Source: Marsupella aquatica (Eukaryota > Plantae > Marchantiophyta). From it: DNA of 64,000 nucleotides. Made by a program: the position numbers and the translations under genes. The stretch covers positions 30,324,932 to 30,388,931 of the forward strand of contig OZ316892.1 in assembly GCA_973895155.1 (NCBI GenBank). Direction: 5' to 3'. Under the pieces are notes generated by a model. That model did not search any database and was not told the DNA's origin. It saw only the letters and a list, made by a program, of their open reading frames with translations. This document shows, one piece after another, positions 1-22,200 of this stretch. Every line of letters begins with the position of its first letter. Positions within the stretch are counted from its first letter, which is position 1.

Positions 1-2
1 TA

Positions 3-1946: not shown

Positions 1947-2164
1947 GGCAGAATCTAAGTCTTTTTAGTTAAGTTTTAAGAATAGTGCATCTTTCCCTAT
2001 TTTTCAAAATGTGTTATAGAGCTTTAAAAGCTATGAAACTTATTTAGTGTGTAGTCTGTACCTAGGAAAACCTACTGGCAAAATTTCAGAATTTTCCGAG
2101 CCAAGAGTAGAAAGTTAAAAATAGTTGAATTTGGTAAGTCTTTAAGTCTATCGCATTCACCAGA

Positions 2165-2226
2165 TTACGCCTTTATGTTTTTACGCTTTTACGCGATTAC
2201 ATCTTTACGTTTTTACGCTTTTACGG
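2165..2226 (+). repeat. Degenerate short tandem repeat (TTTTACG-like) in the A1 LTR
   Basis: ttacgcc-tttatg-tttttacgc-ttttacgcg-attacatc-tttacg-tttttacgc-tttttacgg. Confidence 0.6.
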
Positions 2227-3140
2227 GTTCTTACTTAGCCATTTCCCGGCTTTTCACTTACTGAATCGTTGTTTTGACTTTTTGAGGAGTATGAAGAGGC
2301 ATGTCTCTTCGACCCTATGACCTCTTACCCTGTAGGCTTTTACTATAAGACCCCTCCACCACTAGTGTAGAAGTATGGTTAAGTTATGCATTTTTGCCTT
2401 TTCCTTGTGTTAAACTAGTTGATCATGAACCTATGAGTTCGAGATCAGGTTTAACATTTGGAGAGACTTACCTCCTTCTTGTGTTTTTACCTATGATTTT
2501 ACCTGTGATTATAAACACAGGAAGCAAATCTTTTGAGTTGTGATGACAGATTCCTTGTTGGTGACTCATTGCAATCTCCTGAGTTCTTAAAGTTAACTCA
2601 TTGAGTTTAAGTCTCATTGAAATTGATGGATTTTCTTTCATGTTGCTTAGTAACATCTAAATGTTGAAGTAGCCACTCTTTTAGATCTTATCTGAGTACC
2701 ACTTAGAAAGAAAGGATAAGACATGTTTACGACATTTTAAAAGGTACTCTCGTAAGCAGTTTAGATTTGAAAAGCAAACGTGGATTTGAATCCTTAAGTC
2801 TTTTCATTTTGACTTATGTCTAAGGAGTAACCTTGGTCTATTCTAGACTCCCTTAGCGTACTTTGAGATTATTTTCTCTTGTGTTTTGTTAATCATTCCT
2901 TTTTCATTAATTTATGGTTACCCAATGCTGAGTTATCATTGAAAACTACTCACCGCTGTGGAGCGATCTTCAAAATACCTTATTAAAGTAATCAATTCTG
3001 ATTACTATGTGTTAAAGAGAGTTTTTAAACTCTCATTTGTGTTTTTATGTATCAAACCAACCCCATCTTGTTCTTTATGGGAACGAATACCGAGTTTGAA
3101 GACCTTTAAGTGTGTTTTTGGTTCTTCATAGCAAACTACA

Positions 3141-6100
3141 AGCAACGTCAATCAAGCGGCACATTTCTGGGGATGCCTGTTCGAACGGGCAACTGAGTAC
3201 ATCAAGACTTACGAGGACGAAGAATCAGAAAGGGCAGCTCGAGAACGACAGGAGCTTGCTTGATTGTGGGAGCTGCAGAAGACGGCTTTCTTAGGAGGCG
3301 AACTCATCAAGGCCGAGTTCTTGTGGACTCCTACTTCCAATCAGCTCGACGATCTTCTGTTTTGCAAAGACAGAATTGTCGGCATACGGGAGGCCATCAA
3401 GAACTACAACGACATCCATTGGGAGTTGAAGGGTAGTATGGAGAGGTGGACCCAGGCAACGGTGCTAGGAGAAACATCCATGGCAGCCAAGATGAAGAGG
3501 AAGGGAGCCGTCAACGAAGAAGCCACCCCGGCAAAAAGAACGAGGTCAGCGGCACCAAAGAAGCCAGAGCAGGAGACAGGGAGAAGCCAAAGAGGAGGAG
3601 GTCGATCCCATCAATGCCATTCCAACCAGGGATGACACCTGGAAAGGCTGGGCGGCAACCCTACCAGAGGAGGTGCAGCTACATTTTGCACGGGAGGAGG
3701 ATGCATGCTTTACGGCCATGCAGACCAAGAAGTACCAAGGCTTCATGGCCGGATCCGACTTGGAGGCCTTTGTAAGATTACCATGGCTGAAGCCGGAGGT
3801 GCCGGATTTAGACCTATTAGAGTTCGTGGGGTCATGGGAACCCGAGACCAATTCCACGAGGATATATGGGAAGGATTTCTATCTTACTCCCAAGGTGATT
3901 GCCGAAGTGTTTGGCTTGCCGATAGGCAATAAGACCAAAGTCGATACCAGGAAGACCTTGCCTAACAAGGAGTTCCGATCGTTCCCCGGCCCATCAACGA
4001 AGAATGGCTTCTTCCGGAACACCTGCACCAACCCGCACATAGGAGAGATGATCGACTTCTTGCGGGTGACCATGCATTGTAACTTGCCAAGAGCAGAGAT
4101 CGGCAAGGCACAGGTCTATCTGGCAGAAAGGCTAGACCCAACCCGGGACTACAACGGGTACCTCCTCAACCAATTGAAGAAGATCTTAAAGGAGGAGCAA
4201 CAGGTAATCGGCCTGGGGAGCGTATCGCGGCTTGGTTATCACATGCCGCTGTTGTGCCAGTATGCCAGAGGTCAGACCTTTGCCCCCACACTTCCCCTGC
4301 AGGTAAGGGCACCAGAGGAAGCTCCAGCATTGAGGCTGGTAGCAGAGAAGCCTCAACCGCCTGTTAGCCCTACGATTGAGCAGGTGTTTAAGCCAAGGAA
4401 AGAGGACCAGCCGATGCAGCAACCAAGCATGCAGAATCTGCTGAAATTGCTGGAGAAGGAAAAGGCGGCACCGGTACCGGCACCGGCTTCGGCATCGGCA
4501 CCAATACAGGACACTGCCCCAGAGGTCAGCCTAAGCAGACTTAGGGGGGAAAACCCCTTTACCGGAACTAAGGAGAGAATTAGGCCGGAATCCAAGCCGG
4601 GAGTTCGAATGTACGTGGGAGTCACAAGCTCTGAATCTGAGGCAGAACTGCCTGAAGCTCCTACCGGCGAAGAGGAGAGGGAGAAGCCGGAAGTCCAACC
4701 AGTAGAGGAGGCAGTGGAGGACTGCAGCCATGATAACTCCGGCTATGGGTCGGACCATCACGTTCCAGGAGTAAGGACCTGTGGCCGGTTTATCCCCACA
4801 CTTCCGAGGGTAGTTCGAGGGGACCCCAACCAATAGAGTAGCCCCGAGTCTCCCCCACCAGATGTTGCTCCCCCGAGCTTTGACGGCATAAAGCAGACGG
4901 CACAGGAATTTCAGGAGCGACTTAGGGAAGCAGAGAAGGCAGCCCTCGCTAGGGAAAAGAATTTGCCAGGAGGAGATTGGCCGGAGGACATCAGGCGGCT
5001 AGCCGAAAAAGGAAGCAAACCTCTAGCCACGATTGAAGAAATCCGCAAGACGGCTTGGGAGCAGAGGCCGCAATGGGCAATGCCGATCACTACTAATTAC
5101 TCCACCTACGCTAAAAATAGAGCCATGGAGTATGGTGAGATGTGTGGGGAACTTGCGCTCAACATCTTTGGGGAGGAGTTGGAGGTAGGACCCCTTTTCC
5201 AGAGGGAGCAGTTGGAAAAGCACCAATTAGAAGAAGCGGTGGCTTTAGAGAGAAGCAAGAAGGACGAGGTCATCCGGCGGCTTAGGAGGATGGAAGCCGA
5301 GATTGAAGATCTAAGGGAGGCCAAGAAAGCCCAAGATGAACTGCGGATTAAGCGGCATGAGCTGAACATCATGCAGGGGCAGTTGGATACCGCGCGGGCT
5401 AATAGTCAGATTATCAAAGATAAACTGACTCAGACCCAGGGAGAATTGGCCGACGCAATCAAGGATAGAGAGAAGTGGAAGAAGGAGCTGAGAGACGCAG
5501 AGGAGGCCCATATAGCAGCCAACAACCGGGTCATGGCGGACACTCAGAGAAGGGAGAGGGCACTGAAGGGAGAGCTCGAGGTCATCCGAAGAGCCCTTGA
5601 GCAGAAGGAGGCCGAGTTAGGGAAATCCTATCAAGGGATTATTGCGCTACAGCAAGAGCTTGCATCCCTGAAGGCCAGCTTCAAGGCCGACTTGCGAGAG
5701 AAGGATGCCCAGCTCGACCAGACTTATGCCAAGATGAATAATATGGAGTCTAAGGTCATAGCGGAGCTCGACAAGGAGCTAAAAGCAACCCAGGAGGAGA
5801 GGGCTACCACCAAGAAGGAATTGGAGGAAGCCCACAAGGAATTGGAGGAAGCCAAGAACGAGCTGGAGGAGGCACGTAAAGACCTGGATGAGACCCAGGA
5901 GGAGTTGGAGGAGATCACAAGGAAGATGGAGAACCTAAGGCGGCGGGCCGACAACCAAACAGAGCGGCTGAAGAAACAAGCCGCAGTATTTAAATGCTTA
6001 GTTGCATCAGGTCCATCTCCCGCTGGAGCAAACCAGTTACCAGGAGTGGTAATTGCCGAAGGACCAGCCGTGACACACGTCCCCATGCCGGATGTTGGCG

Positions 6101-6161: not shown

Positions 6162-6520
6162 TGTGACGCCGCCGGTATGGCGGTTAATGAGTGATTCGGT
6201 CTAACTGCGCTCAACACGCACGTTAGGAGTATCTTAGGCCACTATTATTAGCATAACGACAGTATTTAGGTAATCATTATGGATAGGACATCATTAGGCA
6301 ATAAGGGGGAATTCAGGTTTGGACTGGCGGCGGGTCGCTATTCGCACACCTGGGTTACGAGCGTGGAGGGGCCCCTCCCTCCGGTCCGTATAACAAACTT
6401 AAGGAAGCGACCACTGACCCGCGCTGACTCAGACCGGCGGAGTGGCCGGTACACCTCAAGCGTGAGCGGTTCAGCCTATGGGCGTCGAGGAGACGTCGGG
6501 GGATCGGCAAGCCCTCAAGG

Positions 6521-6528
6521 TATAAAAA
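6521..6528 (+). promoter_or_regulatory. TATA box upstream of the C LTR ORF (5' LTR)
   Basis: GGTATAAAAAGG about 100 nt before ATG 6629, followed by a pyrimidine-rich leader. Same motif at 31186. Confidence 0.55.
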
Positions 6529-8319
6529 GGGAGCCGACCCTTTGGAGTGCACCAGTCCATCAGTCCACGCGCCAGCTTTGACCCCAGCTCTCTCGCTCGC
6601 TCTAAGTTGCCACTACTATCTCCTCTGAATGTTGCACACGATCCTCTCCAGCTCGGCCATTCAATTCTGGACGCAGTTCCTATCTACCGGAAGGCACTTG
6701 GCCGACTCATTGAAACACGCCAACCCGCACCGATACAAAATCGAACGCGAGTACGAGAGAGCTATCCGCCTAGCCGGACGTCACCACTATATCCTTAACT
6801 TTGACTACCCGTCTCAGAGCGAGCTTTACCGACCAGCAAAGGTATCTAGGTACTTCTTCAACGGAGACAAATATACCGGTTTCTGGGAAGCATTGCTTTG
6901 GCTTCCGGACGAGGTCTTCAATATCCCGGGTACAATCGACTTGCAACGACATCACTTTGACCACATCCCTGCTCAGGTTCGGGCTATCATCAACAGCGAG
7001 TCCAGCACTACCCGTTCGACAAGGTCGTCTGCACTTGCTTCGGAGAACTTCTACTAGCACCTACAGAGCTTCATGGGAACTCGACCATCAACCAACATGA
7101 CCAACTCACCCGTACCTGTACCCATGCAACCTCAGGCTCAACCTCAGGCTCAGCTTCAGCTTCAGCCTTAGCCGCAACCTAGCCAAACCCCACCACCGAT
7201 TGCCCAGCCGGCACAAGTACGCTCCGTCATCAACGTTGTGGATCTTAGCGATGACAACGAGGCTACCCCACCCTTGACCAGGCGGCCCAGAGGAACAAGC
7301 GCTCAGGGGGCCGGCACTATATCGTCCCTGCCCCCTACTCTGACCCCAGGAGCGGCCCCGGCAGACATGGTGACCGTGGCCGCCCCGGGCCCGTTACTAA
7401 CGGCAGTGGCACTACCCAGGCCCGATCGGAAGGATGGGGAAGTGTCACCTTCCCTGAGCCAGTCAAGGGGGAAGAAGAGGAAGGAATCCGCCACTGCATC
7501 CGGGTTACCATTGGCCACGGTAGCCGTGGCCAAGGTAACAATGCACCGCATGGGGGAAAACGTGCATAAGAATATCCTTCATCCCAAGCATGCGGTGTAC
7601 CTGAAGACTCAGGGATTCGAGCACCTCGCCGCTCTGCCCTGGAACACTTGCACGTACTACGGGGAGGACATGACGGAATTCGTCAAGAATTATGATGATA
7701 CACGTCAGCAAACTCGGATGCGGGGAAGGAATATGTCCCTCACGGAAGAACAGCTCAGGATGATCTTCGGATTACCCGAAGGTGACCATCGAGTCGAATC
7801 ACGGGCTCCCGGGGGCAAGGGAGCCAAGTACCAATCTTCAAGTTTTCCCTCAGAGGGAGCAGTGGACAACGGGTTCGTGATGAGGACCTGCCTCATCCCC
7901 GAGATAGCTGAGCGACTGGAGTTCTAGAGGTACGCCCTCCACATGATGGAACCCCGGGGGGAGATCTCCGCCGCCCAGGTTATCCAGGTCGAGAACTATC
8001 GACCTAGGAAGTGGGCGTCGTACTTCGCTAAGAAATTCCATGGAGAGATGGAGCGGCGAAGGAAGACACTGTACATTGGCGGGAAGGCGTACTTCGCTAG
8101 CCACATCGAGATCATTCTTGAGTGGTATGCTCGGTTTGATCGACGAACCCTTCCCCGTGTCAACGTTACAAAGCTGGTCCCGGCTAGGTGGGTTTTCCCG
8201 GCCTTGGAGAGACGGCCCCAACCCGAGGCCCGAAGTCCGGCGGACACGCCAGCTTCACCCACCCCACCTCCACAAGTAGCTGTGGTCGTAACCGAGGAGG
8301 TACCGGAGGGGTCGGTTGT

Positions 8320-11300
8320 TGTGGTGCGTCCCATGGCTCCCTAAACCCAAGCAACCCCCCAGCTCAAGCCGATTCCCGCGGGTTTCACGCTTGGCGAGGC
8401 CGTTTCCGCGGCTTAGCGGCATGGGACGCTGCTAACCTTCTACTACTACTATTAACATTTTACACACATATACTGGACAGATCCTTCATCGGGTCATGAG
8501 ATACGTAGCCGGCCTAATATAGGCCTTCCCCTGTCTTCCCCTGTCTTCCCCTCCGTCTTGTTAGGTATGTTTGGATTCCGCCGCCGGAATGATCCCCAAT
8601 AGGCTTGGTTAAGCCGCTAAGACCTCTCTCAGCTCGACACATCCAACTCTCACTCCCCTGCTTACTTTCCTTCCTTCTGTTGATGTGGGCACTCTTCACA
8701 CAAGTTAATGCGACACACAAATAGCAAAATGACTCATTCTGACTGAGTCATACCATGCACTTGCCATACAAACAGTACATCTCATACACAAGTTCTGCGA
8801 ACTAAGCCGTGAGGCCAACTCTATTCAGCTCTTAGGCATGAGGAAACATGAATATACACAAGGGTCACTGTATGACTAACCGAGAGCTTCTCGTACTACT
8901 TGATCCCAGCCCGGCTGGTGCAAACTAAAAACTTGCTAAAGAAGAGGCCCTGAGCTCCCCGCTGCCCAGGTACTTATCCTGGTAGTGGATCCGCCATTCT
9001 TTGCATCGTAAGCCTAATCTACTTAACAGTAATCTACTTGCCCGAATCTACCTATGTACAGCAAGGCAGGAGCACAAGTGTTGCTCCTACCAGTGGGACC
9101 GCAATCCCACTAAGCTAAGTGTCAGGGCCGCTCCTGGTTCTGATCCTAATCCTAAACGTGGAGATCCGTGCCCGCCCTGCCCACTCACGCCTCCTCCCTC
9201 CACGTCCGCCCTCCCTAAAAGGAACGGCGCCCTTGCACCGTCACGACACCGGTGGTGGATCCTCAATGGACGCCCCCAACACTTCCTCCGCAGCCACTGC
9301 CGTTGGCCCGCCTACTGACAGATTACCTGCCCTTGACCGAGTCAACTCTCCCTCGGCCTGACTGGGTCCACCTTCGGCTTCAGCCTCGACACCGGCCTCG
9401 GCAATACCCACGGCTTCGGCTTCAACCACCCCCACGGCTTCGGCTTCAGCCACTCCCACGGCTTCGGCCTCAGCCACTCCCACGGCTTCGGCCTCCCCTT
9501 CCCCTAGGGTAGTTGGATCCTTAGCCGTGACCCTGTCTGGGGTCGGTGCTGGGTCTACCTCCTTGATCACCACGGCCTGTGAAGTCGTATTACTCCTTGA
9601 CCCTGAAGGTTTCCGCTTCTTCTTCGTTGGTGGCTCGGCAGCTGGTCCCTTCCCCTTCCCACTTACCTCCGGCACTGGTGCAGGTGGCGCGGCTTGTCCT
9701 TCGGCAATTACCACCCCTGGTAACTGGTTTGTCCCAACAGGAGATGGACCTGCTGCAGCTAAGCATTTAAATACTGCGGCTTGTTTCTTCAGCCGCTCTG
9801 TTTGGTTGTCGGCCCGCCGCTGTAGGTTCTCCATCTTCCTCGTGATTTCCTCCAACTCCTCTTGGGTTTCATCCAGGTCCTTACGTGCCCCCTCCAGCTC
9901 GTTTTTGGCCTCCTCCTGCTCCCTGTGGGCTTCCTCCAATTCCTTCTTCAAGGTAGCCTTCTCCTCCTGGGTTGCTCTTAGCTCCTTGTCGAGCTCTGCA
10001 ATGATGACAGACTCCATCTGGTTCATCTTGGCGTAAGTCTGTTCGAGCATCTCGTCCTTCTCCCTTAGGTCGGCCTTGAAGCTGGCCATCAGGGACGCAA
10101 GCTCCTGCTGCAGCGCCATAATCCCTTGATAGGATTTCCCTAACTCGACCTCCTTCTGCTCAAGGGCTCCGCGGATTTTCTCGAGCTCCCCTTTCAACGC
10201 CCATTCCTTTCTTTGGGTCTCCGCCATGGCCCGGCTGTTGGTTGTTATGTGGGCCTCCTCTGTATTCTTCAGCTCTTGCTTCCACTTTTCCCTTTCTTTG
10301 ATCGTGTCGGCCAATTCTTCCTGCGTCTGAGTCAGTTTATCCTTGATATTCTGATTATCAGCCTGCGCGGCGTCCAACTGCCCCTGCATGATGTTCAGCT
10401 CATGTCGTTTAATCCGCAGTTCATCTTGGGCTTTCTTGGCCGCCCTTAGATCTTCAATCTCGGCTTCCATCCTCCTAAGCCGCCGAATGACCTCGTCCTT
10501 CTTGCTTCTCTCTAAAGCCACCGCTTCTTCTAATTGGTGCTTCTCCAACTGCTCCCTATGGAAAAAGGGTCCTACCTCCAACTCCTCTCCAAAGATGCCG
10601 AGCGCAAGTTCCCCACACATCTCACCATACTCCATGGCTCTATCTTAGCGTAGGTGGAGTAAGTAGAAGTGATCGGCATCGCCCATCGTGGCCTCTGCTC
10701 CCAAGCCGTCCTGCGGATCTCTTCAATCGTGGCTAGAGGTTTGCTTCCTTTTTCGGCTAGCCGCCTGATGTCCTCCGGCCAATCTCCTCCTGGTAAATCC
10801 TTTTCCTTAGCCAGGGCGGCCTCTTCCTCCTGCTTGATTCGCTCCTGAAATTCCTGCACCGTCTGTTTTATGCCGTCGAAGCTCGGGGGAGCAACATCTG
10901 GTGGGGGAGACTCAGGGCTACTCTGCTGGTTGGGGTCCCCTCGCACTACCCTTGGAAGTGTGGGGACAAACCGGCCACAGGTCCTTACTCCTGGAACGTG
11001 ATGGTCCGACCCATAGCCGGAATTATCATGGCTGCAGTCCTCCACTGCCTCCTCTACCTCTTGGATTTCCGGCTTCTCCCTCTCCTCTTCCTCGGTAGGA
11101 GCTTCAGGCAATTCTGCCTCAGATTCGGAGCTTGAGGTTCCCACGTACATTCGAACACCTGGCTTGGATTCCGGCCTGATTCTCTCCTTGTCTCCAGCAA
11201 AGGGGTTTTCTCTTGTGAGCCGGTGTCGGCCTACCTCTGTAGTAGTGTCCTGCATTGTTGCCGTTGCCGTTGTTGTTGCCGATGCCGATTTCTTTTCTTT

Positions 11301-12997
11301 CTCCAGTAGTTTCAGCAGACTCTGCATGCCTGGTTGCTGCATCGGCAAGTCTTCCTTCCTGGGCCTAAACACCTGCTCGATCGTAGGACTAACAGGTGGT
11401 TGAGGCTTCTCAGCCAACGGCCTCGGCGTTGGAGCTTCCTCGGGTGCCCTTACCTGCAGGGGAAGTACCGGGGCAAAAGTCTGACCTCTGGCATACCGGC
11501 ACAACAGCGGCATGTGATAGCCAAGCCGCGACACGCTCCCCATGCCGATTACCTGCTGCTCCTCCTTTAAGATCTTCTTCAATTGGTTGAGGAGGTACCC
11601 GTTGTAGTCCCGGCTTGGGTCTGGCCTTTCTGCCAGATAGACCTGTGCCTTGCCGATCCCTCGGCAAGTTACAATGCATGGTCACCCGCAAGAAGTCGAT
11701 CATCTCTCCTATGTGCGGGTTGGTGCAGGTGTTCCGGAAGAAGCCATTCTTCGTTGATGGCCCGGGGAACGACCGGAACTCCTTGTCAGGCAAGGTCTTC
11801 CTGGTATCAACTTTGGTCTTATTGCCCATCGGCAAGCCAAACACTTCGGCAATCACCTTGGGAGTAAGATAGAAATCCTTCCCATATATCCTCGTGCAAT
11901 TGGTCTCGGGTTCCCATGACCCCACGAATTCTAATAGGTCTGACTCCGGTACCTCCGGCTTCAGCCATGGTAATCTTACAAAGGCCTCCAAGCCGGATCC
12001 GGCCATGAAGCCTTGGTACTTCTTGGTCTGCATGGCCGTAAAGCATGCATCCTCCTCCCGTGCAAAATGTAGTTGCACCTCCACCGGTAGGGTTGCCGCC
12101 CAGCCCTTCCAGGTGTCATCCCTGGTTGGAATGGCCTTGATGGGATCGACCTCCTCCTCTTCGGCTTCTCCCTGCCTCCTGCTCTGCTGCTCGGCTGGCT
12201 TCTTTGGTGCCGCCGACCTCGTTCTTTTTGCCGGGGTGGCTTCATCGTTGACGGCTCCCTTCCTCTTCATCTCTGCTGCCGTGGAGGTTTCTCCTAGCAC
12301 CGTTGCCTGGGTCCACCTTTCCGTGCTACCCTTTAATTCCCAGTGTATGTTGTTGCAGTTCTTGATGGCCTCTCGGATGCCGACGACGCTGTCCTTGCAA
12401 AACAGAAGATCGTCGAGTTGATTGGAAGTAGGCGTCCACAGGAACTCGTCCTTGATGAGTTCGCCTCCTAAGAAAGCCGTCTTCTGCAGCTCCCACAATC
12501 GAGCGAGCTCCTGCCGTTCTCGAGCTGCCCTTTCTGACTCCTCGTCCTCGTAAGTCTTGATGTACTCAGTCGCCCGTTCGAACAGGCATCCCCATAAATG
12601 TGCCGCTTGATTGACGTTGCTCATACCCTCCTTAGGTTGATCGTCGGTATCTACTCTCTCCCCGAGTGCTTGCCTAAGCAGCTGACAGTAGTTGGCCTCC
12701 CGTAGTCGTCTGCCTAGTTCGTGCTCGCAAATGAGCCACCATCTCCTGCAAGCGCTCCTTACCCCTCTCCTCTGCCGGTCCTTCTTCCCGTTGATCCTTC
12801 CTAGCCGCCGACGCTTAACGCGCCCTAACCCTAATCGGGTTTTCACCCTCAGCCTTACCTCCGGCCTCTGCCCGGGTTCCATGGTTGCCCCTAATTGTTT
12901 ATATTTTCCTTGTTTTGTCACTATACTAAGGTGTTCCTAGGGTGCCTTCCTGCTTTACCCACTTAACCGGCCGAGTGATTCCTGTCTAGGCATCACA
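8320..12997 (-). repeat. B1 3' LTR (4678 bp)
   Basis: Direct repeat of 19222-23899, and it follows the PPT on the minus strand. Confidence 0.97.
9241..12882 (-). pseudogene. B-family LTR-encoded protein (~1215 aa reconstructed: PMD-like domain, low-complexity linker, long coiled coil, basic NLS-like patch, AEAEAVGV repeats), with two frameshifts
   Basis: ORFs 11410-12921, 10572-11582 and 9241-10635 join into one frame when a 5-bp (~11658) and a 1-bp (~10643) deletion relative to B2 are restored. ATG at 12882 in GCAACCATGG; the true start is uncertain. Confidence 0.85.
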
Positions 12998-15900
12998 TAG
13001 CTCCCCACTTAATTGTGAAGCATCCTCGCGAACAACTTCATCTTCGTCCATATAGTATTTCTTGAGGCGGTCATAATGGATGCGAACTGGATATACCTCT
13101 CCCGTAATGTTGGCCAATTGCACGGAGCCATTGGGGAACATCATGGTTACTCGAAAGGGTCCTAACCAGCGAGTGTAAAGCTTCCCTGGAAACCTACTAT
13201 ACCTACTGTCATAAAGTAGCACAAGATCACCGGTATGAATACTAACTACTTTTAACCTTTTATCATACTGCTGCTTCATGATATTCTGTCTATATTCTAC
13301 TCTCTCGGCTGAAATCATTCTCGCTTCCTCTAAAGCTTCTAACCTATATTCTCGCTCCTTTAGGCTCTCCTCCGCTGAGGCTCTTTCCTCAATTGTAACT
13401 TGAAATGTCGGTATCTCAAGTTGCGTGGGTACCAGGGCTTCTTGTCCAAAGGTTAAGAAGAAGGGTGTATGACCGGTAGTGGATTTATAGGCCAGATTGT
13501 AAGCAAAAACAGCAGCAAACAATTTATCATCCCAATCGAGTTTGTTCTGAGCTACTGTCTTGTTCAATATCTTTCCTATGATTCCGTTTGCTCGTTCTGT
13601 CAACCCGTTTGCCTTTGGATGGTAGGGAGTAGTAGGCCTATGTTTAACTAAATACTGCTCATTTAAACGACTAATTATATCATTCAAAAAATGGGTTCCT
13701 CTATCACTAACTAATTCTAGGGGTGCTCCATACCTGGTGAAGATCTGCTCATACATGAATCTAGCCGTAGTAATTGCATCATCCTTCGTTGTTGGTCTGG
13801 CCTCTACCCATTTAGTTGCATAATCCGTAGCCAGGATTATGTACTTGTTCCGTCGAGGGTGGGTCAGTGGTTTCAGAGGTCCAATGTAATCAATACCCCA
13901 CTTCTCGAATGGTGCCAGAGGTAGAATAGGGTGCAGTGGATGCCTGGTGGACGCCCTTGGTCCGCCCGCTCGTTGACAAGGATCGCATTGTTTGATAAAC
14001 TGATAGACATCTTTGTGCAAGGTGGGCCACCAGTAACCGGCATTTAATATCTTCTTAGACGTGGTTACTGGGGCAAAATGTCCTCCGGCCTCCTCTCCAT
14101 GCATGGCCCGTAGGACTCGTTTTACCTCTCTCTTCTCCAAACACCTTTGAATCGTGCCGTTGATTCCATGCTTGTGCAGTATGCCTTTAATGCACTGATA
14201 CTGTCTGACCTTCCGCACAAAGACTGCGGCTTGCTCTCGGCTTAATCCTGGCTGTAATCTGGAAGTGCTGAGAAATTGTAAAATCTCAGGGTACCATGTA
14301 CCAGCTATTTCCACAACGAATAGCTCCTCGTCGGGGAATCGATCATCGATGCAATCCGTGGCAGGTTTACCTGTGATCCTTGAAAAGAAGTCGGCATTGG
14401 CATGTAACTTTCCTGGCTTGATCCTCAGCTCATAGTCAAACTCCTGTAATAGCAAAATCCATCTTGCTACTCTGCCTATAAGGTCCGGCTTATTGACTAG
14501 GTACTTCAAACTTTCATGATCAGTATGAAAGATTACCTTGTACCCTAGTAAATAATGCCTAAACTTTTTACAAGAATAAATGACTCCTAATGCTTCTCTT
14601 TCCGTGGTAGAGTAGTTCCGTTCGGCATCGGCAAGCTGACGGCTTGCGAAGTATATGGGATGGTCCCTTCTTTTCTCATCCAACTGACTTAGTACTGAGC
14701 CAATACAGAAGCCCGAGACATCTACAAAAACATGAAAATCTTTGTTCCAGTCCGGTGCTATCATGACTGGGGCCTCTACTAACATCTGCTTCAATTCTAC
14801 CACCGCTGTGACTCGTTCGGGTGTGGGTTCGAAGTCTGCTCCTGCCTTGAGCATATTGGTTAATGGTAAAGCTAGCTTGGCAAAATCCTTGATGAACCGG
14901 CGATAGTAACCAATGCATCCCAAGAAGGATCTTACATCCTTTATGTTCTTAGGTTGCATGATATCTAGCCATACTGCTAGCTTACCTTTGTCAATCTCAA
15001 TGCCCTTCCTTGATACCTTGTGACCTAGTAGCACCCCCTCGGTTACTGCAAAAAAACATTTATCTGGGTGTAACTTGAGACCCACCTCCCTACATCTCAT
15101 GAAGGTTTTCCTGAGGTATTTAGCATGTTTCGATGCCTTCCCGAATACTGCAAAGTCATCAATGAAGATTTCCATGAACTTTCTCAAGTAATCATGAAAA
15201 ATGTTCACCATTAATCGTTGGAACATAGCTGGTACGTTGCAGAGTCCAAACGGCATACGATTGAAGACATAGATCCCCCATTCCGTGATGAAGGCCGTCT
15301 TGATTTGGTCTTCCTGCCGAATCCTGATTTGGTTATAACCAGAGTATCCATCCATGAATGAATATAGTTCATGACTGGCTACCATGTCTAGTACCATATC
15401 AGTAAACGGTAAAGGAAAATGGTCTTTTAATGTTGCTTCATTCAGCTTCCTGTAATCCTGACAAACCCGGATCTTGGGTTTACCATCGGGTCCAGCTTTC
15501 TTGGGAACTATCACAATTGGAGACACCCAGTCTGAATGCAGGACTGGAGTGATGAATCCAGCTTCCACTAGTTTGTCGATTTCTGTTTTGACCAGCAGGG
15601 AATACTTCGGGTTCATCCTTCGAATTGGTTGTCGAAATGATTTGGCTCCTAACATGAGATCAATTCGATGTTCCCCTAGTGTTGGATCTACGCCCTTTAG
15701 ATCTTGGTGACTCCATGCAAACACATCCTGAAATTCAATCAATAAGTCACTGATCTCTTTCTCGAGCTCAGGTGCTAGGTTTCTCCCTAAGTTCAGTTCT
15801 CTTCCCTCTCCTAAGTCGAGCTTCCGATATTGCCGTGCTTGGATCATATTAATCTGCTTCTTCAAATTCGGGTCCAGTTCGGCTTCCAGTCTCTCTAATC

Positions 15901-16228
15901 TCATACCTCCATAAACTGGGATCTCGGCTGGACTAGCCGAGTCGGTCCCTTCCTTGGTGTCCATAGATTGTCCCCTTACCGGTCTATTCGGTTTTGAATT
16001 AGTGGTCGGCTCCCCTTCCTGCCTTGGCTCTGGATCGTGTCTGTCCATCTCATCCACCTCTTGGTCCTGAGAGTTAGGCCGCTGTGCTCTCTCGGCTTCT
16101 AATAGGGCCTCAATTTGTTCTGCCCTTGTAATCGGCTTGTATGCCGATCCCTTGGTATTTAATTCCTTGCCGATGATCGATGGCGTTGTGGACCCCGTCG
16201 GCTCTGCCACAACGCCTGCAGAAAATCC
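12986..16228 (-). CDS. pol: Pol (RT - RNase H - integrase), probably expressed by -1 frameshift from gag-pro
   Basis: RT (DYRKLN, MPFGL, FIDDF), RNase H (DVSGFCIG, TDHESL), integrase (H-H-C-C, WGIDY, SDRGTHF, NGLTER, GPF). No chromodomain. The stop lies 12 nt inside the 3' LTR. Confidence 0.95.
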   Translation of the reverse strand, partial: GFSAGVVAEPTGSTTPSIIGKELNTKGSAYKPITRAEQIEALLEAERAQRPNSQDQEVDEMDRHDPEPRQEGEPTTNSKPNRPVRGQSMDTKEGTDSASPAEIPVYGGMRLERLEAELDPNLKKQINMIQARQYRKLDLGEGRELNLGRNLAPELEKEISDLLIEFQDVFAWSHQDLKGVDPTLGEHRIDLMLGAKSFRQPIRRMNPKYSLLVKTEIDKLVEAGFITPVLHSDWVSPIVIVPKKAGPDGKPKIRVCQDYRKLNEATLKDHFPLPFTDMVLDMVASHELYSFMDGYSGYNQIRIRQEDQIKTAFITEWGIYVFNRMPFGLCNVPAMFQRLMVNIFHDYLRKFMEIFIDDFAVFGKASKHAKYLRKTFMRCREVGLKLHPDKCFFAVTEGVLLGHKVSRKGIEIDKGKLAVWLDIMQPKNIKDVRSFLGCIGYYRRFIKDFAKLALPLTNMLKAGADFEPTPERVTAVVELKQMLVEAPVMIAPDWNKDFHVFVDVSGFCIGSVLSQLDEKRRDHPIYFASRQLADAERNYSTTEREALGVIYSCKKFRHYLLGYKVIFHTDHESLKYLVNKPDLIGRVARWILLLQEFDYELRIKPGKLHANADFFSRITGKPATDCIDDRFPDEELFVVEIAGTWYPEILQFLSTSRLQPGLSREQAAVFVRKVRQYQCIKGILHKHGINGTIQRCLEKREVKRVLRAMHGEEAGGHFAPVTTSKKILNAGYWWPTLHKDVYQFIKQCDPCQRAGGPRASTRHPLHPILPLAPFEKWGIDYIGPLKPLTHPRRNKYIILATDYATKWVEARPTTKDDAITTARFMYEQIFTRYGAPLELVSDRGTHFLNDIISRLNEQYLVKHRPTTPYHPKANGLTERANGIIGKILNKTVAQNKLDWDDKLFAAVFAYNLAYKSTTGHTPFFLTFGQEALVPTQLEIPTFQVTIEERASAEESLKEREYRLEALEEARMISAERVEYRQNIMKQQYDKRLKVVSIHTGDLVLLYDSRYSRFPGKLYTRWLGPFRVTMMFPNGSVQLANITGEVYPVRIHYDRLKKYYMDEDEVVREDASQLSGELCDA
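12998..13012 (-). other. Polypurine tract of B1
   Basis: Minus strand TTAAGTGGGGAGCTA directly before the LTR TG. Confidence 0.85.
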
Positions 16229-19152
16229 ACTGTCCCTGCTACTGCTCCCCACTTAGCCGTTTCATCCAATTGGTCTACATCCTTAACTTCCTCCGGAATT
16301 GCAGCTAAAAAGGTGGATTCTATTGTAAAGCAGTCCTCGACCTCTTCGTCTTCTTCTTCCAAGTCACCTTCCATTGGTTCTTGCCATAATCCGCTGGGGG
16401 GTACCTCTGGTCCAAAGACACCTTCTTCGGTTAGGTTAGTGAAGCATTCTAACCAACGTACTTCATCGGCTGACTCCAGTCCACTATCGTACCCATCTAC
16501 TTCCCTTATGCTTTTCCTACGGTCATCCTTAGTGTCCCAGGATACCGTGATAGAGGGGGTCCCGAAAGTGAACTGCTTTTTACCCCAATCTTCTATTACC
16601 TCGGCTAGGTACAGCCATGGCCTACCAATCAATAGCCGGAATGACGTAGGATTTACCGGTTTCATTACTACATAGTTAATGCTAAAGAAGATACCTCCTA
16701 TCTCTGTCTTGATGCCGGTTAACACTCCCGTAGGAATGACCTGATATCCATTGGCCATGTTCAACACTCTTCCAGTCATCTCCGGTGTTAGACCCCACCC
16801 TTTTGCTGTTGAATCAATCATAATACATACCCCTGATCCTCCATCGATGGGTACCCGTAGTAATAATTCTCCTTGAATCATTAATGGTAATGCTGGGGCT
16901 CCTTGATCTTCTTCTATCATTAGTACGTCGGATCTGGTTGCTACCTTGGGTAATCTCGGCTTGCCGAGAATAGCCTTCCTTAATTGCTTCCGGAAGTACG
17001 GGCTATTTTTCAATAGTTGACCTACTGTTGCCGAGACTCTAGATTCTAGTACATCTTTAGCCAGGTCATAGGGAACAATCGGCTTCTCCTCTGGTGGTGT
17101 TTCCGTCTTGGATTCGGCCAGTTTTGCCACGCTAGTCTCCACAGCTGTTGGGTCTTCCGAAGCAAACAATGCTTTTGCTCGTTTTACATCCTTGGCAATG
17201 GCTTCGGTATTCTCCAGGATTTCTAATTCTCTTAGTTGTTCCTTAACACTAGCCGTAACAGAGGGGTAGAACAACTTAGGATGATCTCGATTGAAGTCGC
17301 TATCTTGTGAAGGATTGGTTTCACTGGTGGGCTCATGGCTTACCTGTATTGCCGGAGCCCTCCCTTCTCCTTCTGTTGATGTTGACGAAGAGTCGATCCT
17401 TTCCTCCGTAACCTTCCCTTTATTTTTGGCCAGCCCATCCCACCTTTCCTTCCTTCTGGTAGATCGAGTAGAGACCCGGTAGCAATCATGATCTAAATCC
17501 TCCTCTGAGAAGGTTGATAGGGCTTCGGCCTCATCATCAGATGGTACGAACTCTGCCTCGGCATCCTCTTGCCATCCTAGTTCGATGTGGTTGATTTGAA
17601 CTCCTCCGGGGGTAGTACCTGGCGGTAAGATCTTGATCGGCAAAAGCTTATGATTTGCGGCCAGGCCTGCCAACCAAGTAGGACATTGCCCTAGCATATG
17701 ATCTTCCTGTCGGCATCCCATACATAGCTGAGCTGGTTGTCCATCACCCTGTTTGCGTGCATTCGGGCATTCTCTAGCAAAATGGCCAGGTTGACCACAA
17801 TTATAGCACGCCGCAAATCTTTGCACATTCGGCCTAGGAGGTACTGACGGGTTCTGAATAATCCGAGGATACATCTCTCCTGGATTGTTCCTTAACCCTG
17901 ACCACAGAGATGCAGGTCTGTTGGATAGGTCTCGTGCTCCAGTCTCACTGATGCCGAAAACACTATCAGCGGCATCTCCCAAAAAGTACTCTACTTCTCC
18001 CTGACATGGTCTGATCTCGGCCACATGCCGAACATGATTAGTATTAAGCTTAGGACAAGCATCTTTATGGTGTCCGGTTTTATAACATAAGGCACACCAT
18101 ACAGAGCTATCCTCCTGTACTACCTTCTTCTTTGGTTTTACCTCTGCAATGATAGCCTTAAGTTGCTCGGTAAGGGCTACGATGTTATCTGGTGGCTTAG
18201 CCTCCATCTTGACTTTCGTCTTCCCTCTCCTTCTGCCCTTCCTTTTCCTAGTTTTTTCTTCTTCAGAACTAGAAGATGACTCACTCTTGCTACTCCCACT
18301 ATTCGAGCTTGACTTATCACTTCTAGACTTCTTGGAATGTTTCTTCTTCTTATCTTTTTTCTTATGGGGTGATCCCTCCTCTGATGAGGAACTCTCAGAC
18401 TTAAGCTGTTTCTTCCGGCTTGTGATATCTGCATTAATGTATAATTGAATATCCTTAATTGCTTCGGCTAAAGTCTCCGGGTTCTCCTTCCTAATTGCAA
18501 AACTCATCTTCTGTGGCAAAGCATTCACCAACCATTGAAGTTGCATACCTTCAGATGCATTGGTCTTTGTACGTCTTACCAGTTTCTGAAAGCGTTGCAA
18601 GAACTTCCTGAAGGATTTGTTCTCCTTGAACCGAAGTTGTCCCAACTTCAGCACTGCTAGTTCTGAAGTTCCAATGGGTCGAAACTCCTTAACAAAGAGT
18701 GTTTTGAAGATATCCCAGATGGCTTGATCTTCCACATCTAATGCTCTGTACCAAGGCCTAGCCTCACCCTTGAACAGGCCGGGAAGAATCTGCATCTTGA
18801 TGGCCGATTCTCCATTTGCTGCAGCGGTTCCCTCGAAATCATCCAACCATTCGTCCGGATCCTCATCTCCTCTCCCATGAAATGCCTTGTAATGTATGCG
18901 CGACCGCTGGCTCAATCTGGTCCCTGGCCTCTCGTCTGGCCGTGCCTCTGGTTCCCCCATGTCGGTTGGAGACTCACTTCTCCTTACCGACTCTTCTTCT
19001 GGTATGTCTTCTTCGACGCCACTTCCAGTTTCGGAGCTACCAGCTCTTTCTGCCCCTCTCAGTCGCTGTGTATCATGCCACCCGGTGAGCTGCTGCAGTC
19101 GAGCTCTCTCCCGTTGAATCACTCTTTCTTCCCTCGGTGTAAGGTCAGTCAT
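16159..19152 (-). CDS. gag: Gag-protease polyprotein (997 aa)
   Basis: Capsid-like region (EDPDEWLDDF...ARPWY), CCHC knuckles (CALCYKTGHHKDAC, CYNCGQPGHFAREC, CMGCRQEDHMLGQC), aspartic protease (IDGGS...LLIGRPWL). Confidence 0.95.
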   Translation of the reverse strand: MTDLTPREERVIQRERARLQQLTGWHDTQRLRGAERAGSSETGSGVEEDIPEEESVRRSESPTDMGEPEARPDERPGTRLSQRSRIHYKAFHGRGDEDPDEWLDDFEGTAAANGESAIKMQILPGLFKGEARPWYRALDVEDQAIWDIFKTLFVKEFRPIGTSELAVLKLGQLRFKENKSFRKFLQRFQKLVRRTKTNASEGMQLQWLVNALPQKMSFAIRKENPETLAEAIKDIQLYINADITSRKKQLKSESSSSEEGSPHKKKDKKKKHSKKSRSDKSSSNSGSSKSESSSSSEEEKTRKRKGRRRGKTKVKMEAKPPDNIVALTEQLKAIIAEVKPKKKVVQEDSSVWCALCYKTGHHKDACPKLNTNHVRHVAEIRPCQGEVEYFLGDAADSVFGISETGARDLSNRPASLWSGLRNNPGEMYPRIIQNPSVPPRPNVQRFAACYNCGQPGHFARECPNARKQGDGQPAQLCMGCRQEDHMLGQCPTWLAGLAANHKLLPIKILPPGTTPGGVQINHIELGWQEDAEAEFVPSDDEAEALSTFSEEDLDHDCYRVSTRSTRRKERWDGLAKNKGKVTEERIDSSSTSTEGEGRAPAIQVSHEPTSETNPSQDSDFNRDHPKLFYPSVTASVKEQLRELEILENTEAIAKDVKRAKALFASEDPTAVETSVAKLAESKTETPPEEKPIVPYDLAKDVLESRVSATVGQLLKNSPYFRKQLRKAILGKPRLPKVATRSDVLMIEEDQGAPALPLMIQGELLLRVPIDGGSGVCIMIDSTAKGWGLTPEMTGRVLNMANGYQVIPTGVLTGIKTEIGGIFFSINYVVMKPVNPTSFRLLIGRPWLYLAEVIEDWGKKQFTFGTPSITVSWDTKDDRRKSIREVDGYDSGLESADEVRWLECFTNLTEEGVFGPEVPPSGLWQEPMEGDLEEEDEEVEDCFTIESTFLAAIPEEVKDVDQLDETAKWGAVAGTVDFLQALWQSRRGPQRHRSSARN
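16169..16228 (-). other. Putative -1 programmed ribosomal frameshift signal
   Basis: G_GAT_TTT in the gag frame, 5-nt spacer, 10-bp stem GGCGTTGTGG/CCACAACGCC, and loop GCCGA complementary to downstream TCGGC. Pol is in the -1 frame. Confidence 0.75.
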
Positions 19153-19199
19153 TACCTACGCTTCCGTTCTAACTTCATATCTCACGGCTTAAGAAATGC

Positions 19200-19217
19200 C
19201 CCCTCCATCTAGCGCCA
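19200..19217 (-). other. Primer binding site of B1 (tRNA-Asn-like)
   Basis: TGGCGCTAGATGGAGGGG, 4 nt after the LTR. One mismatch to the plant tRNA-Asn(GUU) 3' end as I recall it. Confidence 0.8.
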
Positions 19218-19221
19218 AAAA

Positions 19222-22200
19222 TGTGGTGCGTCCCATGGCTCCCTAAACCCAAGCAACCCCCCAGCTCAAGCCGATTCCCGCGGGTTTCACGCTTGGCGAG
19301 GCCGTTTCCGCGGCTTAGCGGCATGGGACGCTGCTAACCTTCTACTACTACTATTAACATTTTACACACATATACTGGACAGATCCTTCATCGGGTCATG
19401 AGATACGTAGCCGGCCTAATATAGGCCTTCCCCTGTCTTCCCCTGTCTTCCCCTCCGTCTTGTTAGGTATGTTTGGATTCCGCCGCCGGAATGATCCCCA
19501 ATAGGCTTGGTTAAGCCGCTAAGACCTCTCTCAGCTCGACACATCCAACTCTCACTCCCCTGCTTACTTTCCTTCCTTCTGTTGATGTGGGCACTCTTCA
19601 CACAAGTTAATGCGACACACAAATAGCAAAATGACTCATTCTGACTGAGTCATACCATGCACTTGCCATACAAACAGTACATCTCATACACAAGTTCTGC
19701 GAACTAAGCCGTGAGGCCAACTCTATTCAGCTCTTAGGCATGAGGAAACATGAATATACACAAGGGTCACTGTATGACTAACCGAGAGCTTCTCGTACTA
19801 CTTGATCCCAGCCCGGCTGGTGCAAACTAAAAACTTGCTAAAGAAGAGGCCCTGAGCTCCCCGCTGCCCAGGTACTTATCCTGGTAGTGGATCCGCCATT
19901 CTTTGCATCATAAGCCTAATCTACTTAACAGTAATCTACTTGCCCGAATCTACCTATGTACAGCAAGGCAGGAGCACAAGTGTTGCTCCTACCAGTGGGA
20001 CCGCAATCCCACTAAGCTAAGTGTCAGGGCCGCTCCTGGTTCTGATCCTAATCCTAAACGTGGAGATCCGTGCCCGCCCTGCCCACTCACGCCTCCTCCC
20101 TCCACGTCCGCCCTCCCTAAAAGGAACGGCGCCCTTGCACCGTCACGACACCGGTGGTGGATCCTCAATGGACGCCCCCAACACTTCCTCCGCAGCCACT
20201 GCCGTTGGCCCGCCTACTGACAGATTACCTGCCCTTGACCGAGTCAACTCTCCCTCGGCCTGACTGGGTCCACCTTCGGCTTCAGCCTCGACACCAGCCT
20301 CGGCAATACCCACGGCTTCGGCTTCAGCCACCCCCACGGCTTCGGCTTCAGCCACTCCCACGGCTTCGGCCTCAGCCACTCCCACGGCTTCGGCCTCCCC
20401 TTCCCCTAGGGTAGTTGGATCCTTAGCCGTGACCCTGTCTGGGGTCGGTGCTGGGTCTACCTCCTTGATCACCACGGCCTGTGAAGTCGTATTACTCCTT
20501 GACCCTGAAGGTTTCCGCTTCTTCTTCGTTGGTGGCTCGGCAGCTGGTCCCTTCCCCTTCCCACTTACCTCCGGCACTGGTGCAGGTGGCGCGGCTTGTC
20601 CTTCGGCAATTACCACCCCTGGTAACTGGTTTGTCCCAACAGGAGATGGACCTGCTGCAGCTAAGCATTTAAATACTGCGGCTTGTTTCTTCAGCCGCTC
20701 TGTTTGGTTGTCGGCCCGCCGCTGTAGGTTCTCCATCTTCCTCGTGATTTCCTCCAACTCCTCTTGGGTTTCATCCAGGTCCTTACGTGCCCCCTCCAGC
20801 TCGTTTTTGGCCTCCTCCTGCTCCCTGTGGGCTTCCTCCAATTCCTTCTTCAAGGTAGCCTTCTCCTCCTGGGTTGCTCTTAGCTCCTTGTCGAGCTCTG
20901 CAATGATGACAGACTCCATCTGGTTCATCTTGGCGTAAGTCTGTTCGAGCATCTCGTCCTTCTCCCTTAGGTCGGCCTTGAAGCTGGCCGTCAGGGACGC
21001 AAGCTCCTGCTGCAGCGCCATAATCCCTTGATAGGATTTCCCTAACTCGACCTCCTTCTGCTCAAGGGCTCCGCGGATTTTCTCGAGCTCCCCTTTCAAC
21101 GCCCATTCCTTTCTTTGGGTCTCTGCCATGGCCCGGCTGTTGGTTGTTATGTGGGCCTCCTCTGTATTCTTCAGCTCTTGCTTCCACTTTTCCCTTTCTT
21201 TGATCGTGTCGGCCAATTCTTCCTGCGTCTGAGTCAGTTTATCCTTGATATTCTGATTATCAGCCTGCGCGGCGTCCAACTGCCCCTGCATGATGTTCAG
21301 CTCATGTCGTTTAATCCGCAGTTCATCTTGGGCTTTCTTGGCCGCCCTTAGATCTTCAATCTCGGCTTCCATCCTCCTAAGCCGCCGAATGACCTCGTCC
21401 TTCTTGCTTCTCTCTAAAGCCACCGCTTCTTCTAATTGGTGCTTCTCCAACTGCTCCCTATGGAAAAAGGGTCCTACCTCCAACTCCTCTCCAAAGATGC
21501 CGAGCGCAAGTTCCCCACACATCTCACCATACTCCATGGCTCTATCTTAGCGTAGGTGGAGTAAGTAGAAGTGATCGGCATCGCCCATCGTGGCCTCTGC
21601 TCCCAAGCCGTCCTGCGGATCTCTTCAATCGTGGCTAGAGGTTTGCTTCCTTTTTCGGCTAGCCGCCTGATGTCCTCCGGCCAATCTCCTCCTGGTAAAT
21701 CCTTTTCCTTAGCCAGGGCGGCCTCTTCCTCCTGCTTGATTCGCTCCTGAAATTCCTGCACCGTCTGTTTTATGCCGTCGAAGCTCGGGGGAGCAACATC
21801 TGGTGGGGGAGACTCAGGGCTACTCTGCTGGTTGGGGTCCCCTCGCACTACCCTTGGAAGTGTGGGGACAAACCGGCCACAGGTCCTTACTCCTGGAACG
21901 TGATGGTCCGACCCATAGCCGGAATTATCATGGCTGCAGTCCTCCACTGCCTCCTCTACCTCTTGGATTTCCGGCTTCTCCCTCTCCTCTTCCTCGGTAG
22001 GAGCTTCAGGCAATTCTGCCTCAGATTCGGAGCTTGAGGTTCCCACGTACATTCGAACACCTGGTTTGGATTCCGGCCTGATTCTCTCCTTGTCTCCAGC
22101 AAAGGGGTTTTCTCTTGTGAGCCGGTGTCGGCCTACCTCTGTAGTAGTGTCCTGCATTGTTGCCGTTGCCGTTGTTGTTGCCGATGCCGATTTCTTTTCT

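What the first reader, a model, noticed from the sequence alone, without database searches (positions are those of the whole stretch)
11500..12030. All four unrelated-looking accessory ORFs share a plant-mobile-domain (PMD)-like core
Manual alignment: B GLEAFVRLPW..EFVGSWEPETN..LTPKVIAEVFGLPMG..NGFFRNTCTNPHIGEMIDF; C GFEHLAALPW..EFVKNY..LTEEQLRMIFGLPEG..NGFVMRTCLIPEIAERLEF; A GLEHLLAVPW..DFVK..WTVEQIAYAFRCPSEG..NGWNLTQCTYPDLRVLLEF; D GIESLADFLW..FSLKAVADCY..EGFTPDSACDPVLRAIFRF. The B segment resembles the PMD signature as I recall it (ERWRPETHTF...ITLEDV..ILGLP.G; PF10536, MAIN/MAIL1 family), which is linked to chromatin silencing control. Basic NLS-like patches and the lack of obvious transmembrane segments suggest nuclear proteins. 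Inference: a rapidly diversifying, element-encoded chromatin or anti-silencing factor.
Basis: partly seen in the sequence, partly recalled or inferred. Interest (0 to 1): 0.85.

Follow-up and report, generated by a model that had tools for sequence, protein, structure and literature searches.

The report
VANC-like genes inside retrotransposon LTRs
Four nested plant retrotransposon families share one accessory protein domain, in three of them encoded inside 4-kb terminal repeats, whose predicted fold most resembles the transposon anti-silencing protein VANC, so these elements likely use it to recognise their own DNA and resist host silencing.

Summary
The shared domain is real. All 14 quoted motifs are present. 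A profile built from relatives of A finds D, C and B at E 9e-33 to 6e-4; the next hit is 0.59. It is not PF10536 by sequence. Predicted structures of the A and B domains both rank VANC21-DNA first among 48,161 chains (Z 7.1 and 5.1), a middling but isolated match. Two papers report VANC as structurally similar to the PMD of MAIN/MAIL1, so 'PMD-like' holds at fold level only. The genes show purifying selection. B, D and that relative each carry their own CpG-containing 5-mer, enriched even at synonymous sites of gag-pol, as VANC-type self-recognition predicts. DNA binding, expression and anti-silencing are untested. The scan has noted LTR-borne genes before, in other genomes (fungal in one).

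The parts
11480..12070 (-). Shared domain, family B, in the 3' LTR of element B1 (the finding); frame changes near 11660
   Evidence: other copies differ by an indel at that place
9241..12936 (-). Family B accessory gene region in three frames: N-terminal extension, domain, Pro/Glu-rich linker, long coiled-coil-like segment, basic patch; frame changes near 11660 and 10640
8320..12997 (-). B1 3' LTR, 4678 bp, TG...CA, contains the whole accessory gene
   Evidence: 10 differences from the 5' LTR
12998..13033 (-). Conserved block ending in the polypurine tract of B1
12986..19155 (-). B1 gag-protease (19155-16159) and pol RT-RNase H-integrase (16252-12986), both open; studded with GCCGA
19204..19221 (-). 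B1 primer-binding-site-like sequence (TGGCGC after a short T run)
   Evidence: tRNA identity not tested
19222..23899 (-). B1 5' LTR with second copy of the accessory gene (domain starts 22896); target-site duplication GTTGT at 8315-8319 and 23900-23904
3634..4281 (+). Shared domain in the 5' LTR of the older copy B0, open throughout; the sequence that was modelled
6162..25743 (+). Family C 5' LTR (6162-8319 and 23905-25743), split by the B1 insertion; domain from 7613 with a stop at 7925-7927
30829..34854 (+). Family C 3' LTR, 4026 bp, TG...CA, after a PPT block at 30793-30828; accessory gene 31336-33953, domain from 32302, broken; duplication GGGTC at 6157-6161 and 34855-34859
39969..44114 (-). 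Family A insertion, 4146 bp, TG...CA, duplication CCAGT, no gag or pol; inferred solo LTR
   Evidence: empty site seen in contigs of 2 of 4 runs
41152..43554 (-). Intact 800-aa accessory ORF of A: shared domain (about 43510-42850), linker, second C-terminal domain also in D
43739..44002 (-). Degenerate tandem array of TTACGAGT-type words upstream of the A ORF; a second 8-bp array at 40882-40946
1..3140 (+). Diverged second family A copy (80% nt), ORF open to 1943, same CA end; its 8-bp array at 2163-2225 has a different unit
47584..49665 (-). Family D accessory ORF, 693 aa, open; lies between pol and a short 3' LTR
50125..50160 (-). Degenerate second PPT block directly after the D integrase stop, upstream of the D accessory ORF
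   Evidence: 25 of 36 identical to D's working block; best unrelated site 21 of 36
45344..46404 (-). D 3' LTR (1061 bp shared with the 5' LTR at 56920-57980), working PPT block at 46405-46440

Best explanation
The four ORFs are one accessory gene family of non-chromoviral Ty3/gypsy retrotransposons whose shared 200-residue domain is predicted to have the VANC/PMD-type fold and likely binds a short DNA word private to each element family, which would keep that family's copies transcribable despite host silencing. Shown: homology of the four domains; position directly after the post-pol PPT block, hence inside the LTR in B and C; purifying selection; family-private CpG words in B, D and L002 and word arrays in A. 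Predicted: the fold, and a coiled coil in B and C that would oligomerise the protein. Inferred: A is a solo LTR; the protein is nuclear and binds the word; binding lifts DNA methylation or repressive histone marks; protein and word co-evolve, which explains the fast divergence; because the gene rides in the LTR, solo LTRs could supply it in trans.
For: Homology. Family of 290 clusters at E<=0.001. Fold: A model pLDDT 90.9; VANC21-DNA first by Foldseek (E 0.15, probability 0.75, TM 0.41, next 0.12) and by VIA-align (Z 7.1, 209 aligned, rmsd 4.4, next 4.4; Z 7.4); B model also VANC21 first (Z 5.1, 170 aligned, rmsd 4.2, next 2.6). VANC21 binds a short motif and demethylates its elements (PMC5735166); MAIN/MAIL proteins sit on motifs and oppose Polycomb. 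Selection: dN/dS 0.16 over 636 codons of A vs A' at dS about 1; 0.27-0.31 for B0 vs B1. Motifs in gag-pol against synonymous-codon shuffles, best of all 5-mers, family-wise p: B1 GCCGA 34 vs 14.3 (0.003), D AACCG 17 vs 5.9 (0.007), L002 TCCGG 39 vs 13.9 (0.003); none of these is enriched in another family's gag-pol, and total CpG is depleted; related words top the same families' LTRs. Host methylation pressure: 70 of 98 differences between C's two LTRs are transitions in CG or CHG context.
Against: Z 7.1-7.4 is in the range the tool calls middling, identity is 9-11%, and no sequence method links the family to VANC21. Foldseek did not list VANC21 for the weaker B model (pLDDT 69.9), and the two models share alignment rows, so they are not independent. 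C's motif is not significant family-wise (CCCGA, p 0.076). A's word is not enriched in its ORF. Non-coding arrays like VANDAL's occur only in A, not in B, C or D. CpGs inside GCCGA are not clearly better kept between B0 and B1 (45 kept/12 transitions vs 230/95, p 0.26); of 18 tests only GCCG (0.002) and a foreign word, TCCGG (0.03), passed, post hoc. There is no control element lacking the gene. All B and C copies here are broken. The words are 5-8 bp and CpG-containing, unlike the VANC21 and VANC6 motifs.
Confidence: 0.55

Rival explanations
1. The protein binds its own element's DNA but acts as a transcriptional transactivator or autoregulator of the LTR promoter, without removing silencing marks (like foamy virus Tas; recalled).
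For: Same fold and motif evidence; acidic and proline-rich linkers; A's word array lies directly upstream of the ORF.
Against: In B, D and L002 the word is spread through gag-pol, not confined to the promoter; the closest solved fold is a demethylating factor.
Confidence: 0.17
2. The domain has the VANC/PMD-type fold but works in the replication cycle (binding cDNA or RNA, nuclear import, integration targeting), and the private words are packaging or assembly sites.
For: Words cover the whole element, as packaging signals might; such roles are proposed for other additional ORFs (PMC7264820).
Against: No tested member of this fold group in the papers I read has that role; the preference for CpG-containing words is unexplained by it.
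Confidence: 0.13
3. The VANC match is a chance helical similarity and the words come from family-specific mutation or codon-pair bias; the ORFs are a real but unrelated accessory family.
For: Middling Z and no sequence link; inconclusive CpG-retention test; no gene-less control (one search found none).
Against: The match spans the whole domain, is first in two programs and for two models, and lands on a plant transposon accessory protein among 48,161 chains; language-model neighbours are retrotransposon ORF1 families.
Confidence: 0.12
4. The ORFs are env-like membrane proteins for cell-to-cell spread.
For: Sense orientation 3' of pol and coiled coils, as in env-like ORFs (PMC7264820).
Against: No transmembrane segment in the window ORFs; 1 of 150 relatives has a hydrophobic peak; no viral fold match.
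Confidence: 0.03

Closest known systems
VANC anti-silencing proteins (DUF1985) of Arabidopsis VANDAL Mutator-like transposons; VANC21-DNA structures 9LNJ/9LNK
   Same: Best fold match over the whole domain; element-encoded, fast-evolving accessory gene; globular domain plus coiled coil (PMC13547354); family-specific short words in the element, with arrays in A (PMC5735166).
   Different: Host element is an LTR retrotransposon, not a DNA transposon; 9-11% identity; no DUF1985 match; words contain CpG and in B, D, L002 are dispersed into coding DNA; VANC is described as dicot-specific; binding and demethylation not shown here.
Plant mobile domain PF10536 (gypsy PMD-A; MAIN/MAIL1/MAIL2 PMD-C)
   Same: Similar short motif around GSWEPET...FGLP; carried by gypsy extra ORFs, often with a coiled coil (PMC5418596, PMC4408406); linked through the VANC fold.
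   Different: No HMM match; known PMD extra ORFs are in the internal region (the earliest reported one antisense, in gymnosperm Tat III); here sense and inside the LTR, with named relatives from a liverwort.
PF20167 Transposase_32 and PF03078 ATHILA ORF1 of Athila elements
   Same: Nearest named families by language-model features (0.88-0.92) and weak HMM hits in 2 of 117 members; sense ORF 3' of pol in elements without a second RNase H; nuclear localisation predicted for one (PMC11728184).
   Different: Best 17 bits against a cut-off of 45; described as internal, between pol and the 3' LTR, which here fits only D.
Retroviral genes in the LTR, such as MMTV sag (recalled; also named in earlier scan notes)
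   Same: Protein-coding gene after the PPT, duplicated in both LTRs.
   Different: Unrelated protein; non-infectious plant element; LTR 4.0-4.7 kb and mostly coding.

Membership tests
PF10536 plant mobile domain | HMM match at or above Pfam's cut-off | tested here: not met
   No family for any window copy; not among the 25 of 43 families shown for 117 members
PF10536 plant mobile domain | Direct structural or profile-profile match to a PMD protein | not testable with these tools
   No AlphaFold DB or HH-suite library; only the indirect link through VANC21
VANC / DUF1985 | Same fold as the VANC21 DNA-binding core | tested here: inconclusive
   First hit for both models, whole domain, well above the next row, but Z 5.1-7.4 and Foldseek E 0.15; absent
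VANC / DUF1985 | Sequence match to DUF1985 or to VANC21 | tested here: not met
VANC / DUF1985 | Encoded by a VANDAL (Mutator-like) DNA transposon | tested here: not met
   Context is gag-pol with LTRs
VANC / DUF1985 | Family-specific short motifs accumulated in the element, often as non-coding tandem repeats | tested here: inconclusive
   Arrays in A and A'; dispersed words significant in B, D, L002, not C; link to the protein not shown
VANC / DUF1985 | Sequence-specific DNA binding and loss of methylation in trans | not testable with these tools
   needs experiment
PF20167 / PF03078 Athila ORF1-like | HMM match at cut-off | tested here: not met
   PF20167 best E 0.005, 17.2 bits vs 45, in relative P0068
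Ty3/gypsy LTR retrotransposon | gag, protease, RT, RNase H, integrase order; TG...CA LTRs; 5-bp duplication; PBS and PPT | tested here: met
   B1 and C; D lacks a matching duplication
Tat clade (Ogre, Retand, TatI-III) | Additional archaeal-type RNase H domain | tested here: not met
   Pfam shows one RNase H region in B, C and D pol; REXdb profiles not available
Athila, Phygy or Selgy clade | Placement in an RT phylogeny with reference elements | not tested
   No reference sequences were obtained
env-like ORF | Transmembrane segment | tested here: not met
   (hydropathy scan only)

The most novel reading that the evidence does not exclude
A widespread lineage of gypsy retrotransposons of seed-free plants carries an LTR-borne, sequence-specific anti-silencing gene: each family writes its own CpG word throughout its genome, even into synonymous sites of gag-pol, and its solo LTRs act as dispersed trans-acting donors. 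This family would be an early branch from which Athila ORF1, PMD/MAIN and VANC derive, making the fold a retrotransposon invention older than seed plants.
Probability: 0.3. Interest if true: 0.93.

Novelty: new variant of a known kind. Interest (0 to 1): 0.76.

Why it matters
In the papers I read, sequence-specific anti-silencing is shown only for VANDAL DNA transposons, the function of retrotransposon extra ORFs is called unknown, and the ancestry of genic versus gypsy PMD is called fully open (PMC5418596). This family supplies a candidate retrotransposon counterpart with a predicted target word per family, so binding and anti-silencing are directly testable, and it could extend the set of motif-programmed epigenome effectors. 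The LTR position may explain why it was missed: one survey capped LTR length at 2000 bp and reported no extra ORFs in moss Tat-like elements (PMC4408406); that link is my inference.

Tried and rejected
No whole genome is held. Word-index protein searches were nearly blind: 1 hit for A, none for B among longer proteins, 2 for the alignment. PDB sequence searches gave only low-complexity or chance hits. Viral fold library: nothing at E<=0.001. No solved PMD/MAIN chain was listed in the fold searches, which excludes nothing. Viral contigs: no relative of the domain, the PPT block or B's RT, so no gene-less control for the motif test. No RNA holder listed; expression is unknown. CpG retention test inconclusive. 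B and C N-terminal extensions are not detectably related. The C-terminal domain shared by A and D has no Pfam or PDB match and was not modelled. No tRNA genes. The VANC21 structure paper and Sasaki 2022 are not held, so DNA-contact residues could not be mapped. Rejected: tandem elements sharing a 1-kb LTR (the repeat is 4678 bp, bounded by TG/CA, PPT, PBS and duplication); host-gene capture in one copy (several families, purifying selection). No complex prediction was run.

Full report
Context. The window is a nest of Ty3/gypsy retrotransposons. The finding lies in element B1 (minus strand, 8320-23899). Its two LTRs are 4678 bp, differ at 10 sites, begin TG and end CA, are flanked by a GTTGT duplication, and adjoin a PPT (12998) and a PBS-like site (19221). 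B1 sits in the 5' LTR of element C (6162-34854, 3' LTR 4026 bp, duplication GGGTC), which sits in the 5' LTR of an older B copy, B0. B0's pol holds a 4146-bp TG...CA insertion of family A with a CCAGT duplication and is cut at 45204 by element D. Contigs of 2 of the 4 runs laid show the empty A site. The host is not given. Of 30 relatives looked up, 2 carry an organism name, both the liverwort Calypogeia fissa; a seed-free plant is my inference.

The observation. The quoted motifs are all present (14 of 14). Four of six pairwise comparisons beat all 1000 shuffles; C-D is marginal and B-D is not significant. A phmmer search with A's first 260 residues found 290 clusters at E<=0.001 and listed 150. 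I aligned 116 of these, chosen for coverage. The resulting HMM picks out exactly the eight accessory segments among 1151. The shared domain is therefore real. It is about 200 residues long; the family is held together by a few positions such as W52, R78, F114, G123, F140, P143, W173, with a median pairwise identity of 27%. Flanks differ: B and C have unrelated N-terminal extensions and coiled-coil-like C-termini; A and D share a second C-terminal domain (score 95, 0 of 1000 shuffles).

Is it PMD? Not by sequence. Pfam finds nothing in the window copies. Among 117 members the most frequent families have two members each, one being PF20167 (25 of 43 families shown). The ESM Atlas gave unnamed clusters, then PF20167 (0.89) and PF03078 (0.88) for B, and PF20167 and PF03078 at 0.92 for relative P0031; shared-feature counts were under the tool's 170 guide, so these are leads. 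The A model is confident (pLDDT 90.9). Foldseek ranks VANC21-DNA first, though at E 0.15; VIA-align over 48,161 chains gives VANC21 Z 7.1, 209 aligned, rmsd 4.4, next 4.4 (Z 7.4). The B0 model is weaker (69.9): Foldseek lists no VANC, VIA-align ranks it first at Z 5.1, 170 aligned, rmsd 4.2, next 2.6. These scores are middling, but the match covers the whole domain and stands alone. Borreda et al. 2026 (PMC13547354; passages, outline, section 10 read) and Pelissier et al. (bioRxiv 10.1101/2024.09.27.615353; passages) report that VANC and the MAIN/MAIL1 PMD are structurally similar. I put membership of a VANC/PMD/Athila-ORF1 fold group at about 0.8 and membership of PF10536 as not met.

The gene is inside the LTR. 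In B and C the whole accessory gene lies after the PPT and is duplicated in both LTRs. A's intact 800-codon ORF fills an insertion with LTR-type ends and no gag or pol; no full A element was seen, so 'solo LTR' is inferred. Laid contigs show a drop in summed depth at 12997 in 2 of 4 runs; the tool warns that this is no copy number, so it is weak support. A metagenome scan gave 5 loci. In the 2 that reach pol (L002 and L003, near-identical, so one lineage) the integrase stop is followed by the same conserved block, a PPT, TG, and the ORF about 570 bp later; no second LTR is on those contigs. D is the exception: its ORF is internal and its LTR about 1.06 kb. But a degenerate PPT block sits right after D's integrase stop (25 of 36 identical to its working block, background at most 21). 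The cassette thus follows a post-pol PPT block in every case that can be checked, and a duplicated block appears to have moved the LTR border in D; the direction of change is unknown.

Selection. A versus A': dN/dS 0.16 over 636 codons at dS 1.05 (domain end 0.08 on 68 codons, C-terminal domain 0.07). B0 versus B1: 0.27-0.31 in four segments, against 0.13-0.25 for gag-pol. C's two LTRs give 1.15 and 0.28 on small counts, as expected for decay after insertion. B1's two frame changes are absent from B0, and other copies differ by indels at the same two places.

Private words. VANC proteins bind short motifs that accumulate in their own elements (Hosaka 2017, PMC5735166; passages). I looked for the equivalent. 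A has a TTACGAGT-type array upstream of its ORF (8-mer 7 times in 560 bp, shuffle maximum 3) and an 8-bp array downstream whose unit differs between A and A'. The other 9 non-coding regions tested gave little: A's 3' region just exceeded its shuffles, and those of B, C and D did not clearly. In gag-pol, shuffling synonymous codons and taking the best of all 5-mers gave GCCGA for B1 (34 vs 14.3) and B0 (25 vs 10.9), AACCG for D (17 vs 5.9), TCCGG for L002 (39 vs 13.9), family-wise p 0.003-0.007, and CCCGA for C (25 vs 12.4, p 0.076). All contain CpG, although 24% of 5-mer classes do and total CpG is below the shuffled mean. Each word is enriched only in its own family's gag-pol; GCCGA and TCCGG recur in the cognate accessory ORFs, D's words do not clearly. 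Against: in-word CpGs are not clearly better preserved between copies, and I have no element lacking the gene as a control.

Mechanism. Most likely the LTR carries a self-contained cassette; CT-rich leaders precede the ORFs and C has a TATA-like site at LTR position 358, but no RNA was available. The soluble product would bind its family's word through the VANC-like domain, oligomerise through the coiled coil where present, and lift or block silencing across the element. The host does methylate these elements, judging by 70 of 98 differences between C's LTRs being CG or CHG transitions. Binding, localisation and anti-silencing are inferred. Confidence 0.55; rivals are a plain transactivator (0.17), a replication-cycle factor (0.13), chance fold plus mutational bias (0.12) and env-like (0.03).

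What is known. Extra ORFs with PMD, Transposase_28 or Athila ORF1 are known from Ogre, Retand and Athila, and LTRs up to about 5 kb are known in non-chromoviruses (Neumann 2019, PMC6317226; passages). Reviews place such ORFs between pol and the 3' LTR with unknown function (PMC7264820, parts 1-2 of 3; PMC11963269 and PMC11728184, passages). Ikeda 2017 (PMC5418596; passages) describes gypsy PMD-A in angiosperms; Ustyantsev 2015 (PMC4408406; passages) finds the first PMD ORF in gymnosperm Tat III and none in moss Tat-like elements. The Apopellia genome paper (PMC12885004; passages) lists Athila, Phygy, Tat and Selgy without such ORFs in the passages seen. My ten searches returned no paper on this family, on a coding LTR in plant gypsy elements, or on a VANC-fold retrotransposon ORF; the library lacks most subscription papers, and the VANC21 structure paper, Sasaki 2022 and Steinbauerova 2011 were not seen. 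Supplements were not consulted and may bear on this, notably those of PMC13547354, PMC6317226 and the Pelissier preprint. Earlier scan notes describe LTR-borne genes and a word-studded element in other genomes; none matched by place or sequence.

Verdict. Observation confirmed; interpretation partly supported. A new variant of a known kind: an unnamed VANC/PMD-fold-like accessory family, mostly LTR-borne, with a testable target-word prediction. Interest 0.76.

Noticed in passing
window 42030-41152 (-), 48300-47584 (-): Second conserved domain at the C-terminus of A and D (dN/dS 0.07 in A vs A'), also in relative P0139; no Pfam or PDB match.
   Followed up: partly
window 50160-50125 (-): Relic PPT block after D's integrase suggests that LTR borders move by PPT duplication.
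   Followed up: partly
window 12986-13033, 30793-30828, 46405-46440; L002 2490-2530: A block beginning GTTCGCGAGG just before the PPT is conserved across families whose RTs are 61-71% identical; in B the pol frame runs through it and ends 12 bases inside the LTR.
   Followed up: partly
window 45205-45343: 139 bp starting TGTGG between the B0 break and D's shared LTR end; D has no matching target-site duplication and its 5' LTR lacks a terminal CA, suggesting a rearrangement.
   Followed up: no
window 3140-3141, 6157-6161, 8315-8319: Three successive insertions (A', C, B1) landed in the accessory genes or LTRs of related elements; may reflect target preference or target size.
   Followed up: no
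window 58268-61362: Flanking region with 218-bp and 129-bp tandem repeats, 25-55 bp repeats and many AAACCCT-like words.
   Followed up: no
window 62134-62988 (-) and 60746-61465 (+): Open frames of 284 and 239 codons without Pfam match; the first may be the end of a DNA transposon gene (impression only).
   Followed up: no
L001, L004, L005: These loci are also rich in ATCCGG/TCCGGA/CCGGA words, like L002.
   Followed up: partly
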